The notes under the pieces were generated by a model. The model was given only the letters and a program-made list of their open reading frames with translations, had not been told where the DNA came from and searched no databases. The translations under genes and the position numbers were made by a program. Shown one piece after another: positions 183 through 4,410 of a stretch of DNA of 64,000 nucleotides. The stretch is from Escherichia coli (GTDB lineage Bacteria; Pseudomonadota; Gammaproteobacteria; Enterobacterales; Enterobacteriaceae): assembly GCF_003334385.1 (NCBI RefSeq), contig NZ_QOWN01000013.1. The stretch is one strand, 5' to 3'. How positions within the stretch are numbered: the first letter of the stretch is position 1; the number at the start of each line of letters is the position of its first letter.

Positions 183-431
183 ATGGCAAGACTTATTCTG
201 CTCACTGAGTGGGCAAAAGAGGAATTCAGTGAACCGGTCCCTACTCCGAGTACGTTAAGTAAATACGCTAAAGCCGGAATGATATTTCCTCTCCCCAAAA
301 AAGTTGGAAGACGCTGGCGAGTGGATCCGCAAGCTCGCTTTGTCGGAATGGTAAACAAGCCGGAGGTGATCGCCACAGATCACCCTGCTTTGAAGAGGAT
401 ACTGGAAGATGGCGCGCCCGCGAAAATATAA
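183..431 (+). CDS. Excisionase-like small DNA-binding protein (Xis family)
   Basis: 82-aa ORF directly upstream of and overlapping the integrase start. It is basic, with an LTEWA...IFPLPKKVGRRW motif resembling lambda Xis (LTLQEW...IFPPPVKDGRE). Confidence 0.55.
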   Translation: MARLILLTEWAKEEFSEPVPTPSTLSKYAKAGMIFPLPKKVGRRWRVDPQARFVGMVNKPEVIATDHPALKRILEDGAPAKI

Positions 432-1539
432 AACCGATGTTCCGGGATTATCTCCGTATTTTGACAAAAGAAATAACAAAGTTTACTGGCGTTACAGGCA
501 TCCCATAACAGGCAAAAATCACGGTCTCGGCAGTATTGACCAGAAACTGGCAGAAACTATTGCAGCAGAAGCGAACAGCCGTCTTGCCCGGCAGCAAATG
601 GAACAAATGCTCAGTCTGCAGGAGAAAATTATTAGTGATACCGGCGGTTCATCAACCGTTACCATTTTTCTGAATAATTACAGAAAAATTCAACAGGAAA
701 GATATGAAAACGGCGAGATCAAACTCAACACGCTGAAACAGAAAGCGGCCCCTCTCAGGGTATTTGATGAACGTTTTGGCACCAGACCGTTAGATGCCAT
801 AACCGTAAAAGATGTGGTATCAGTACTGGAAGAGTACAAGGCCAGAGGACATAACAGAATGGGACAAATTTTCAGGAAAGTACTGATCGATGTTTTCCGG
901 GAAGCTCAGCAAACGGGCGATGTCCCGCCAGGCTTTAACCCTGCAGAATCGGCAAAAAAACCGCAGGTGCGGATATCAAGACAGCGACTGACTTTTGATG
1001 AGTGGATGATGATTTATAACGCAGCGGAAAAGAATGGTTACTTTTTACAGCGCGGTATGCTGCTGGCACTGATGACAGGCCAGCGCCTTTCAGATATTTG
1101 CAAAATGCAATTTTCGGATATCCGGGATGGTTATCTTCATGTCGAACAGCAAAAAACAGGAACCCGGATTGCCATCCCTCTGGCTCTGCGTTGCGATAAA
1201 TTAAATCTCACCCTGGATGATGTAGTGTCATCCTGCCGCGATTGCGTTCTTAGTCCGTGGCTATTGCACCACCATCACGCGAAAGGGACAGCTAAGCGCG
1301 GCGGGATGGTTAAGCCAGCAACATTAACCGTTGCATTTAAAAAAGCCCGGGATTCTGTGGATTACAACTGGCGTGCTAATGGCACCCCACCCTCTTTCCA
1401 TGAGCAGAGATCTTTATCAGAGCGATTGTTCAGAGAGCAGGGGGTTGATACCAAAATTTTGCTAGGCCATTCGAATCAAAAAATGACCGATATTTACAAC
1501 GATGTACGCGGTAAGGAGTGGAAAAAACTGGTCATTTGA
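409..1539 (+). CDS. int: Phage-type tyrosine integrase (lambda Int family)
   Basis: 376-aa ORF whose C-terminal catalytic region reads ...GQRLSDICKMQFSDIRDGYLHVEQQKTGTRIAIP...HEQRSLSERLF...LLGHSNQKMTDIYNDVRGKEW, collinear with lambda Int (R-K-H-R-H-Y signature region). Confidence 0.85.
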   Translation: MARPRKYKTDVPGLSPYFDKRNNKVYWRYRHPITGKNHGLGSIDQKLAETIAAEANSRLARQQMEQMLSLQEKIISDTGGSSTVTIFLNNYRKIQQERYENGEIKLNTLKQKAAPLRVFDERFGTRPLDAITVKDVVSVLEEYKARGHNRMGQIFRKVLIDVFREAQQTGDVPPGFNPAESAKKPQVRISRQRLTFDEWMMIYNAAEKNGYFLQRGMLLALMTGQRLSDICKMQFSDIRDGYLHVEQQKTGTRIAIPLALRCDKLNLTLDDVVSSCRDCVLSPWLLHHHHAKGTAKRGGMVKPATLTVAFKKARDSVDYNWRANGTPPSFHEQRSLSERLFREQGVDTKILLGHSNQKMTDIYNDVRGKEWKKLVI

Positions 1540-1545
1540 TGACCA

Positions 1546-1579
1546 GTTTTGCAGAAGAGTTTTGCAGAGGTTTTGCAGA
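1546..1579. repeat. Three direct repeats of GTTTTGCAGA (1546-1555, 1559-1568, 1570-1579) between the int stop and the ompW stop
   Basis: Seen directly in the sequence. Their position next to the int 3' end matches where arm-type Int-binding sites sit in lambda attP (P' arm). Confidence 0.45.
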
Positions 1580-1584
1580 GAAAA

Positions 1585-2238
1585 TTAAAAACGATATCCT
1601 GCCGAGAACATAAACACCCACGGGTCAAGGCGTACATTGTCGCTATAACTGCCTTTAGCCAGTTTACGACCATCAGATTTATACTTCGCGGTGGTATCGA
1701 TATCCATGTACCACACTGACATGTTAACCAACCAGTCACGGTTAATCAGATAATCAACCCCCACCTGCCCGGCAGCTCCCCAGGAATCTTTCAGACTGAG
1801 ATCGGAAAGCCCTGCCTCTTTGCCATGATCGTTAAATCCATTATCAAAGAAGGTGGTGTAGTTAATACCTGCCCCAACGTAAGGACGGAATTTGCTGCTG
1901 GCATCACCAAAATACCACTGCGCCATCAGTGTTGGTGGCAGATGATGAACGGTTGCAATATCGCCGGTCGCCCGGGTGCCGATTTTATGGCGGAACGGCG
2001 TCGCTGCCAGTAATTCCACACCAATGTTGTCGGTCGCCATATAAGTAAACGTAAGGCCCAGTTGCGTGTTATTGGTCACGCTGAATCCACCCAGACTTCC
2101 TAACGTACCACCAGCACCTTCTGTTGGACGTACGGTTGCAGAACCTGCACGCATAAAAAATTCGCCTGCTTCATGCGCAAAGGCACTGCCAGAGAGAAGA
2201 GTTGTTACTGCCAAAGCCGCCACTGTTAACTTTTTCAT
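1585..2238 (-). CDS. ompW: Outer membrane protein W
   Basis: 217-aa ORF with signal peptide MKKLTVAALAVTTLLSGSAFA and OMP C-terminus ...FSAGYRF, in conserved synteny with yciCBA-tonB. Confidence 0.93.
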   Translation of the reverse strand: MKKLTVAALAVTTLLSGSAFAHEAGEFFMRAGSATVRPTEGAGGTLGSLGGFSVTNNTQLGLTFTYMATDNIGVELLAATPFRHKIGTRATGDIATVHHLPPTLMAQWYFGDASSKFRPYVGAGINYTTFFDNGFNDHGKEAGLSDLSLKDSWGAAGQVGVDYLINRDWLVNMSVWYMDIDTTAKYKSDGRKLAKGSYSDNVRLDPWVFMFSAGYRF

Positions 2239-4011: not shown

Positions 4012-4410
4012 ATGTCTACAACACATAACGTCCCTCAGGGCGATCTTGTTTTACGTACTTTAGCCATGCCCGCCGATACCAATGCCAATGGTGACATCTT
4101 TGGTGGTTGGTTAATGTCACAAATGGATATTGGCGGCGCTATTCTGGCAAAAGAAATTGCCCACGGTCGCGTAGTGACTGTGCGGGTTGAAGGAATGACT
4201 TTCTTACGGCCGGTTGCGGTCGGCGATGTGGTGTGCTGCTATGCACGCTGTGTCCAGAAAGGGACGACATCGGTCAGCATTAATATTGAAGTGTGGGTGA
4301 AAAAAGTAGCGTCTGAACCAATTGGGCAACGCTATAAAGCGACAGAAGCATTATTTAAGTATGTCGCGGTTGATCCTGAAGGAAAACCTCGCGCCTTACC
4401 TGTTGAGTAA
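4012..4410 (+). CDS. yciA: Acyl-CoA thioesterase YciA
   Basis: 132-aa hotdog-fold thioesterase ORF, synteny. Confidence 0.92.
   Translation: MSTTHNVPQGDLVLRTLAMPADTNANGDIFGGWLMSQMDIGGAILAKEIAHGRVVTVRVEGMTFLRPVAVGDVVCCYARCVQKGTTSVSINIEVWVKKVASEPIGQRYKATEALFKYVAVDPEGKPRALPVE

What the first reader, a model, noticed from the sequence alone, without database searches (positions are those of the whole stretch)
1546..1579. Three direct GTTTTGCAGA repeats at the int/ompW junction, candidate arm-type Int sites
Three copies of a 10-mer with 13- and 11-bp spacing sit immediately after the int stop. This mirrors the position of the P'1-P'3 arm-type sites of lambda attP. If they are Int arm sites, the recombination core lies just to their right, within about 30 bp of or inside the ompW 3' end.
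Basis: inference. Interest (0 to 1): 0.4.

Follow-up and report, generated by a model that had tools for sequence, protein, structure and literature searches.

The report
Integrase arm sites of ompW prophage
Three exact copies of a 10-base motif just after a prophage integrase gene are very probably the docking sites that the lambda-type integrase uses to assemble its recombination complex, which is an ordinary mechanism in a common E. coli prophage family where these sites had not been pointed out.

Summary
GTTTTGCAGA occurs three times (window 1546-1555, 1559-1568, 1570-1579; spacing 13 and 11), between the int stop (1539) and the ompW stop (1585). There is no other exact copy in 64 kb.

The element is a "PPompW" prophage, present in about a third of complete E. 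coli genomes. Its Int is a full-length lambda Int homologue with the arm-DNA-binding N-domain.

The same prophage has a fourth exact copy, in the same orientation, 135-144 bp beyond the core on the far arm. That matches the geometry of lambda P1. Empty ompW sites lack the repeats.

The triple, with its 13/11 spacing, recurs after int genes only 44-53% identical that target other genes. Serratia and Erwinia elements at icd carry the same motif. Phage 21-like 4A7 and relatives at dcp and potC carry TTTTGGGGA. E14 carries TTTTGATAA. In the three intact-attP elements or complete prophages, the far-arm copy matches the near-arm motif.

One correction: the crossover lies at 1688-1718, 109 bp right of the repeats and about 100 bp inside ompW. 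The phage carries its own ompW 3' end.

Binding has not been shown. This is a new member of a known kind, of modest interest.

The parts
183..431 (+). xis, encoding a lambda-type excisionase of 82 aa
   Evidence: ORF. Pfam Exc PF07825, E 1.4e-7. Annotated as excisionase in matching records.
409..1539 (+). int, encoding a heterobivalent lambda-family tyrosine integrase of 376 aa
   Evidence: PDB lambda Int 1z1b/5j0n, E about 1e-55 over residues 14-375. Pfam Arm-DNA-bind_1 PF09003 over residues 2-71, E 1.6e-21, plus Phage_integrase.
1524..1550 (.). Hairpin overlapping the int stop codon and the first 5 bases of R1. It has an A-run on one side and a T-run on the other, so it is a possible bidirectional terminator for the convergent int and ompW genes.
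   Evidence: RNA fold of 12 pairs: -14.9 kcal/mol on + (z -3.3) and -17 kcal/mol on - including a small second stem (z -5.3). The simple terminator scan did not call it. Function is inferred.
1546..1555 (+). R1, candidate arm-type Int site (lambda P'3 position)
   Evidence: Exact 10-mer. Invariant in 8 junctions and in Serratia/Erwinia icd elements.
1559..1568 (+). R2, candidate arm-type Int site (lambda P'2 position)
   Evidence: Exact 10-mer. Invariant, while the R1-R2 spacer varies: AGA, GGG or GGA in E. coli, and AGA, AAA or ATA in Serratia/Erwinia.
1570..1579 (+). R3, candidate arm-type Int site (lambda P'1 position)
   Evidence: Exact 10-mer. TTTTGCAGA is invariant; the first base is G or A.
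1585..1687 (-). Phage-borne replacement of the ompW 3' end. It encodes loop L4 and the last beta-strand and forms the spacer of the int-proximal att arm.
   Evidence: This segment differs from the host version, which is retained at the far end of the prophage. At least 5 alleles of the encoded loop exist.
1688..1718 (.). Crossover (core) block GCGGTGGTATCGATATCCATGTACCACACTG. Strand exchange must occur inside it.
   Evidence: It is the only stretch identical in the phage and host versions distal to the diverged segment. The phage version stays on the int side and the host version at the far end. GGTATCGATATCCATGTACCA (1693-1713) is present in all but one of the junctions compared; L013 has one substitution, GGTATCAATATCC. 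Exact cleavage positions are not determined.
1585..2238 (-). Hybrid ompW gene (217 aa): host 5' part joined to the phage-supplied 3' end
   Evidence: ORF. Annotated ompW in NZ_CP025903.1. Empty-site homology starts at about window 1583.

Best explanation
R1-R3 are the int-proximal (P'-arm) arm-type binding sites of the PPompW prophage integrase. The N-terminal Arm-DNA-bind_1 domain of Int protomers would bind these three tandem sites and a fourth co-oriented site (R4) on the far arm. R4 lies outside the window, at L003 29742-29751. The C-terminal domains of the same protomers would bind and cut the core inside ompW (window 1688-1718). With DNA bending, this bridging builds the intasome for integration and, with Xis, for excision, as in lambda. 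In the prophage state seen in the window, R1-R3 belong to the int-proximal junction, equivalent to lambda attL. Shown here: the repeats, the Int domain architecture, the fourth copy, the crossover block, and the conserved layout across relatives. Inferred: that Int binds these sites and that they are required for recombination.
For: (1) There are three exact copies in 34 bp and none elsewhere in 64 kb; the shuffle expectation is 0.21. (2) Int is a full-length lambda Int homologue (E about 1e-55) with the arm-binding domain PF09003 (E 1.6e-21). Xis is lambda-type. (3) The source genome matches the window at 100%. At the far end of the same prophage there is an exact GTTTTGCAGA in the same orientation, 135-144 bp beyond the core centre. 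The same arrangement is seen in an intact attP, phage 204576. The chance of that 10-mer on either strand of a 300-bp arm of this composition is 6.6e-4. (4) The geometry matches lambda when read from J02459. P'3-P'2-P'1 start at the int stop codon, and P1 is co-oriented with them 132-142 bp beyond the core centre. (5) TTTTGCAGA x3 is invariant in 8 diverged int-ompW junctions, while the spacer and the neighbouring ompW' segment vary. R4 is kept at the same distance in 6 diverged far-arm classes, and similarity between classes ends just after it. (6) Empty ompW sites lack the repeats. (7) The identical triple with 13/11 spacing follows int genes only 48-53% identical that are inserted in icd in Serratia and Erwinia, so the motif goes with int and not with ompW. 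(8) Relatives at 44-51% identity keep the layout with other motifs. 4A7 (icd) has TTTTGGGGA x3 at 13/12 spacing plus a fourth copy 360 bp on. The Klebsiella (dcp), 640R1 (potC) and Providencia phages have near-arm triples at 13/11 built on the TTTTGGGGA variant; the copies are imperfect (TTTTGGAGG, TTTTGGAGA and TTTTGGTGG also occur). E14 has TTTTGATAA x3 at 13/11 plus one far-arm copy. Near-arm and far-arm motifs agree within each of PPompW, 4A7 and e14 but differ between them, as expected for sites read by one protein.
Against: There is no binding or functional data for this element. No inverted P2-like copy was found with up to 2 mismatches anywhere in attP, so the site set differs from lambda's 2+3. 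The near arm is long: R3 lies 109-133 bp from the core centre against 54-63 bp for lambda P'1. Its length differs by 15 bp between alleles, which would change the helical phase. One relative, L022, has the GCAGA triple but GTTTTGATAA at the R4 position. N-domain residues do not cleanly track motif class: R/K28 against Q separates GCAGA from GGGGA, but e14 IntE also has R. Xis and Int are co-inherited, so comparative data cannot strictly assign the sites to Int rather than Xis. R1 overlaps a hairpin tail, so part of its conservation could serve termination.
Confidence: 0.8

Rival explanations
1. The repeats are binding sites for the excisionase (Xis), which in several phages coats three to five tandem, helically phased direct repeats to set the direction of recombination.
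For: There are three tandem direct repeats at 11-13 bp spacing, about one helical turn apart. A lambda-type Xis is encoded next to int. Xis is inherited together with int, so the comparative data do not formally separate the two proteins.
Against: A co-oriented copy sits on the other arm at the lambda P1 distance. Sites on both arms are the signature of Int bridging. Established knowledge of lambda, not tested here, is that Xis sites lie on one arm only, the arm far from int. The repeats occupy exactly the place of P'1-P'3 in the homologous xis-int-attP layout.
Confidence: 0.07
2. The repeats are part of a transcription-termination or 3'-UTR element for the convergent int and ompW genes, or bind some other host or phage factor, and play no direct role in recombination.
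For: A stable hairpin (1524-1550) flanked by A- and T-runs overlaps the first half of R1. Integration removes the native ompW terminator, which stays at the far end, so a substitute terminator is needed here.
Against: The hairpin touches R1 only, which leaves R2, R3 and the far-arm copy unexplained. Relatives such as 4A7, the Klebsiella phage, 640R1 and e14 keep the triple and the 13/11 spacing without this hairpin next to it. The simple terminator scan did not call the site.
Confidence: 0.08
3. The repeats are a functionless tandem duplication produced by replication slippage that has hitch-hiked with the prophage.
For: They are short tandem copies, which can arise by slippage.
Against: The same triple and spacing are kept downstream of int genes only 44-53% identical, in other genera and at other target genes, while the flanks are unrelated. 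The spacers vary while the repeats do not. A separate far-arm copy is conserved.
Confidence: 0.02

Closest known systems
Lambda attP arm-type sites P'1-P'3 and P1 (Int N-domain sites)
   Same: The xis-int-attP order is homologous and Int has the same three-domain build. Three tandem co-oriented roughly 10-bp sites begin at or just after the int stop codon. A single co-oriented site lies 132-144 bp beyond the core centre on the other arm.
   Different: The motif is GTTTTGCAGA rather than the lambda ATAGTGACCT type. Spacing is 13/11 against about 10/10. The near arm is 55-70 bp longer because it contains a phage-borne ompW 3' end. No inverted P2-like site was found. The core lies inside a protein-coding gene.
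Phage 21 and e14, integrases that insert in the 3' end of icd
   Same: These are the closest characterised relatives. E14 IntE is 49.6% identical and the phage 21-like 4A7 Int is 50.8% identical. Each carries a replacement 3' end of the target gene between core and arm sites. Each has a triple repeat at 13/11 or 13/12 spacing plus one far-arm copy. From memory, not verifiable here: Wang et al. 1997, J Bacteriol 179:5705, placed the minimal phage 21 attP between 366 and 418 bp. That span includes outermost repeated dodecamers proposed as arm sites. It fits the 403 bp from R1 to R4 in 4A7. The paper's existence is confirmed by the citation in PMC10111431.
   Different: The target is ompW, not icd. 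The motif is GCAGA, against GGGGA (21-like) and GATAA (e14). In e14, about 3 kb of cargo (ymfD, ymfE, lit) separates intE from the sites.
PPompW prophages of STEC O145:H28 (Nakamura et al. 2021, PMC8112680)
   Same: This is the same element family, with int-att DNA 99% identical. That study sequenced attP from excised circles and defined a 121-bp att duplication.
   Different: That paper's text contains no mention of arm-type sites or of a narrower crossover region. Here the crossover is narrowed to a 28-31-bp block and four candidate arm sites are proposed.

Membership tests
Arm-type sites of a lambda-family heterobivalent tyrosine integrase attP | The cognate integrase has an N-terminal arm-DNA-binding domain | tested here: met
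   Pfam Arm-DNA-bind_1 PF09003 over residues 2-71, E 1.6e-21. Alignment to the lambda Int N-domain 1kjk and to full-length 1z1b.
Arm-type sites of a lambda-family heterobivalent tyrosine integrase attP | Repeated short motif, different from the core sequence, lying in the att arms outside the crossover region | tested here: met
   R1-R3 lie 109-142 bp from the crossover block at 1688-1718. The motif is absent from the core.
Arm-type sites of a lambda-family heterobivalent tyrosine integrase attP | Copies on both arms of attP | tested here: met
   Exact fourth copy at L003 29742-29751 in the same prophage and at L004 4323-4332 in an intact attP. P about 6.6e-4 by chance.
Arm-type sites of a lambda-family heterobivalent tyrosine integrase attP | Sites belong to the element, not to the host target locus | tested here: met
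   Empty sites have an unrelated ompW 3' flank. The same triple follows int in icd-inserted elements of Serratia and Erwinia.
Arm-type sites of a lambda-family heterobivalent tyrosine integrase attP | Conservation of the sites and co-variation of near- and far-arm motifs among relatives | tested here: met
   Invariant in diverged PPompW junctions and far arms. PPompW has GCAGA on both arms, 4A7 GGGGA on both, and e14 GATAA on both. The exception is L022, which is mixed.
Arm-type sites of a lambda-family heterobivalent tyrosine integrase attP | Specific binding by the Int N-terminal domain (EMSA or footprint) | not testable with these tools
Arm-type sites of a lambda-family heterobivalent tyrosine integrase attP | Requirement of the sites for integrative or excisive recombination (minimal attP) | not testable with these tools
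   There is only indirect support: far-arm similarity between classes ends just past R4.
Arm-type sites of a lambda-family heterobivalent tyrosine integrase attP | Bending-protein (IHF) sites between arm sites and core | tested here: inconclusive
   By eye on the alignment, TAACTGATTGATT fits YAANNNNTTGATW perfectly in three far-arm classes and with one mismatch in the others. No convincing site was seen in the near arm. No dedicated scan was run.
Exact lambda-type site set (P1, P2, P'1-P'3) | An inverted P2-like site on the far arm | tested here: not met
   No inverted copy with up to 2 mismatches in the PPompW attP. So this is a 1+3 layout, not lambda's 2+3.
Xis (recombination directionality factor) binding array | Tandem sites confined to one arm, between the core and the Int arm sites | tested here: not met
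   The motif occurs on both arms and at the outer ends of attP.

The most novel reading that the evidence does not exclude
The PPompW / phage 21 / e14 integrase clade may be a natural specificity-swap series. It shows a fixed 3+1 arm-site scaffold with rigid 13/11 spacing, at least three interchangeable arm motifs (GTTTTG followed by CAGA, GGGA or ATAA), and arm motif uncoupled from core target (ompW, icd, dcp, potC). If so, it would let the recognition code of the Arm-DNA-bind_1 domain be read from sequence and then re-engineered. In addition, integration may act as lysogenic conversion by rewriting surface loop L4 of the outer-membrane protein OmpW with one of several phage-borne alleles.
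Probability: 0.3. Interest if true: 0.45.

Novelty: new member of a known kind. Interest (0 to 1): 0.3.

Why it matters
PPompW-type elements sit at ompW in roughly a third of complete E. coli genomes. In STEC they carry type III effector genes and serve as landing pads for Stx2a phages (PMC8112680). Knowing the functional extent of their attP and the true crossover block helps in several ways. The proposed attP runs about 290-300 bp from R1 to R4, and the crossover block is 28-31 bp rather than 121 bp. This allows exact prophage boundaries to be called, shows which remnants can still excise, and supports the design of integration vectors for the ompW site. The conserved 13/11 scaffold with swapped motifs across the clade is a modest but usable data set on how arm-binding domains choose their DNA. 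Mechanistically nothing is unexpected: this is the lambda paradigm.

Tried and rejected
(1) The simple terminator scan did not call the hairpin at 1524-1550. Folding shows it is stable, but it explains R1 at most, so I rejected it as the explanation of the triple.

(2) I searched for an inverted P2-like copy in the PPompW and 4A7 attP. There was none with up to 2 mismatches in PPompW, and only a weak TTTTGGCTA in 4A7.

(3) I looked for N-domain residues that track motif class. Positions 7, 23 and 28 separate GCAGA from GGGGA, but e14 IntE (GATAA motif) shares R28 with the GCAGA class. There are too few sequences, so I make no claim.

(4) Literature. There was no hit for the motif together with integrase, and nothing on arm sites of phage 21, e14 or PPompW in the open library. 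Wang et al. 1997 is not held.

(5) NCBIfam gave nothing useful for Xis or Int.

(6) A repeat search of the far arm for candidate Xis sites gave only weak A/T-rich matches.

(7) Most of the 111 viral contigs with two tandem TTTTGCAGA copies have no Int homologue nearby and look like unrelated or chance arrays.

(8) One-mismatch copies elsewhere in the window are at chance level in number and scattered, so I did not pursue them.

Full report
**Observation.** The window reads ...ctggtcatTTGAtgacca-GTTTTGCAGA-aga-GTTTTGCAGA-g-GTTTTGCAGA-gaaaa-TTA.... The three exact 10-mers are at 1546-1555, 1559-1568 and 1570-1579, with start-to-start spacing of 13 and 11. They are the only exact copies on either strand of the 64-kb window. 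Shuffles give 0.21 on average and never 3. One-mismatch copies elsewhere are scattered and near chance level. The int ORF (409..1539, +) ends 6 bp before R1. The ompW ORF (1585..2238, -) ends 5 bp after R3.

**Context.** The window is E. coli chromosome, in the order xis-int | ompW-yciC-yciB-yciA-tonB. It matches strain 300709 (NZ_CP025903.1) at 100%. The int-att DNA is 99% identical to the deposited 'PPompW' prophages of STEC O145:H28. In those phages, excision and attP were shown by PCR and sequencing after mitomycin C treatment (PMC8112680). The int-ompW junction is present with at least 80% coverage in 1,715 of 5,426 complete E. coli genomes.

Int is a full-length lambda Int homologue. It aligns to 1z1b/5j0n at E about 1e-55 over residues 14-375. 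It has Pfam Arm-DNA-bind_1 (PF09003, residues 2-71, E 1.6e-21) and the catalytic domain. The upstream 82-aa ORF is a lambda-type excisionase (Pfam Exc, E 1.4e-7).

**Where the crossover is.**
- Genomes without the element align to the window only from about 1583 rightwards. Their ompW 3' flank is an unrelated terminator sequence, so the repeats are not host DNA.
- The deposited records annotate a 121-bp imperfect duplication of the ompW 3' end.
- I compared the int-side junction (window; L001), the far junction of the same prophages (L003, L001), an empty site (L002) and an intact attP (L004). The diverged middle of that duplication segregates. The phage version stays next to int and the host version stays at the far end.
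- Exchange must therefore occur in the distal shared block, window 1688-1718 (GCGGTGGTATCGATATCCATGTACCACACTG). Within it, GGTATCGATATCCATGTACCA (1693-1713) is present in all but one of the junctions compared; L013 has a single substitution.
- The core is thus 109 bp to the right of R3 and about 100-130 bp inside ompW. The phage restores the gene with its own 3' end.

- *Other end of the element.* The window holds only the int end. In the source genome the prophage is a 29-kb remnant ending at an ompW fragment next to yciE. There, an exact GTTTTGCAGA lies in the same orientation at L003 29742-29751, 135-144 bp beyond the core centre. The 31.5-kb record 'phage 204576' has the junctions joined as an intact attP, in the order int stop, R1-R3, ompW', core, then R4 at 4323-4332. 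A 10-mer hit on either strand of a 300-bp arm of that composition has P about 6.6e-4.
- *Host flank.* This is excluded, as described above.

**Conservation within the family.**
- In eight int-ompW junctions differing by up to about 13% in DNA, TTTTGCAGA x3 is invariant. The R1-R2 spacer is AGA, GGG or GGA. The adjacent ompW' segment exists in several very different versions, one with a 15-bp insertion.
- Six diverged far-arm classes (77-98% identical to the L004 far arm) all keep GTTTTGCAG(A/G) at the same distance from the core. Similarity between classes stops within about a dozen bases after it. This marks the outer edge of the conserved att module.

**Comparison with lambda.** I read the layout from J02459 rather than relying on memory. 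Along the int coding strand, the stop codon TAA is the start of P'3 (TAATGATTTT). It is followed directly by P'2 (ATTTTGACTG) and P'1 (ATAGTGACCT), at 74-83, 64-73 and 54-63 bp from the core centre. P1 (ATTAGTGACCT) is co-oriented with them, 132-142 bp beyond the core centre. P2 is inverted. The PPompW layout has the same plan: three tandem sites starting just after the int stop, and one co-oriented site 135-144 bp beyond the core. The near arm is lengthened by the ompW' segment, so that R3 to R1 lie 109-142 bp from the centre in L004 and 124-157 bp in the window. No P2-like inverted site is detectable.

**Relatives.**
- A scan of IMG/VR for two tandem copies gave many unrelated hits. It also found two loci, L022 and L047, whose Int is only 49-52% identical. 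They have the identical triple, spacing and position, and unrelated flanks.
- Their downstream DNA encodes an icd C-terminus, not ompW.
- A scan of 100,044 species-representative genomes for the full triple found six loci. One is a PPompW type in E. albertii. Five are in Serratia and Erwinia, with Int 48-53% identical over at least 120 residues in four of them (the fifth has only a 36-aa int fragment at its contig end). All five are inserted in the 3' end of icd.
- The arm motif is therefore uncoupled from the core target. This is expected for heterobivalent integrases.
- In the phage collection, the next relatives (44-51% identity) keep the architecture with another motif. Phage 4A7 carries an icd 3' end like phage 21. 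It has GTTTTGGGGA x3 at 13/12 spacing after the int stop, and a fourth co-oriented copy 360 bp on.
- Klebsiella phage ST13-OXA48phi12.4 (next to dcp), vB_EcoS-640R1 (next to potC) and Providencia PSTCR8lys have imperfect TTTTGGGGA-type triples at 13/11.
- E14 in a K-12-like genome has TTTTGATAA x3 at 13/11 just past its icd' copy, and one co-oriented far-arm copy. IntE is 49.6% identical to the window Int.
- Near- and far-arm motifs agree within PPompW, 4A7 and e14 but differ between them. L022 is mixed, with a GCAGA triple and GTTTTGATAA at the R4 position.

**Interpretation.** The best explanation is that R1-R3 and R4 are the arm-type sites read by the Int N-domain, bridging the arms to the core inside ompW (confidence about 0.8).
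- The Xis-array rival is weakened because the motif sits on both arms and at the lambda P' and P1 positions.
- The terminator rival explains at most R1, which overlaps the tail of a stable hairpin at 1524-1550 (not called).
- Functionless slippage is excluded by conservation across integrases that are about 50% diverged.
- What is missing is any binding or deletion experiment. The open literature I could search has none for this family.
- From memory only: Wang et al. 1997 delimited the phage 21 attP to 366-418 bp, including outer 'dodecamers' proposed as arm sites. The paper's existence is confirmed, but its text is not held. That span fits the 403 bp from R1 to R4 in 4A7.

**Verdict.** The finding is real and its interpretation is essentially right, with the core position corrected. 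It is a new member of a known kind, namely lambda-type arm sites in the phage 21/e14-related PPompW integrase clade. It is useful for annotation and engineering but mechanistically ordinary. Interest is 0.3.

Noticed in passing
window 1585-1690 (- strand); L001, L005-L008: Integration replaces the last roughly 35 codons of ompW with a phage-borne version. The encoded segment between the last two beta-strands is presumably surface loop L4 (strand and loop assignment from memory, not tested). It comes in at least five alleles: K-12 ANYKLGGAQQHDS; window AKYKSDGRKLAKGSYSDN (5 aa longer); PPompW AKYKSGVTTVKDS; others ASYKSNGTPVKDA and AKYKSGVNTVKDS. This might alter an outer-membrane receptor surface, as a form of lysogenic conversion. 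From memory, OmpW is a colicin and phage receptor. No function was tested.
   Followed up: partly
window 1524-1550: A 12-pair hairpin spans the int stop codon, with an A-run on one side and a T-run on the other. It has the shape of a bidirectional terminator for the convergent int and ompW genes. The native ompW terminator is left behind at the far end of the prophage. Fold energies are -14.9 and -17 kcal/mol. The simple scan did not call it.
   Followed up: partly
L132 1444-1476 and 16287-16295 (E. coli K-12-like e14): E14 has its own 3+1 set of TTTTGATAA repeats with the same 13/11 spacing, next to its icd' copy. About 3 kb of cargo (ymfD, ymfE, lit) has been inserted between these sites and intE.
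   Followed up: partly
L001 43771-43792; L004 4285-4320 (far arm, outside the window): Other far-arm blocks are conserved across classes: TTTTTTATAC, GTGTTTTTAAC(T/C)G and TGATTTT. One of them, TAACTGATTGATT, fits the IHF consensus YAANNNNTTGATW perfectly in three classes. These are candidate IHF or Xis sites.
   Followed up: partly
L022 5280-6060: This viral contig has an attP-like junction: int, the GCAGA triple, icd', then non-icd AT-rich DNA and a hicAB pair. It has the e14-type motif GTTTTGATAA where R4 is expected, so it is a mosaic of arm-motif classes.
   Followed up: partly
L003 1090-29990 (source genome, outside the window): The prophage that supplies the window's int end is a 29-kb remnant. 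One 4.2-kb ORF is annotated as a terminase but runs into tail-fibre genes, so most of the morphogenesis region is deleted. Int, xis and all four candidate arm sites are nevertheless intact, so the remnant may still be excisable.
   Followed up: no
L133 5632-5800 (Escherichia albertii NBRC 107761): A PPompW-type int (99.7% identical) with the triple and the core block is followed, after the core, by sequence that is neither ompW nor the usual far arm. This suggests a rearranged or secondary insertion site.
   Followed up: no
L051, L093, L100; L024, L035, L040; L036 (viral contigs): Unrelated viral contigs carry arrays of 3-5 TTTTGCAGA-containing repeats with no homologue of this Int nearby. Their role is unknown.
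   Followed up: no
window ~2380-2470: Matching RefSeq genomes annotate a short YkgJ-family pseudogene fragment between ompW and yciC.
   Followed up: no
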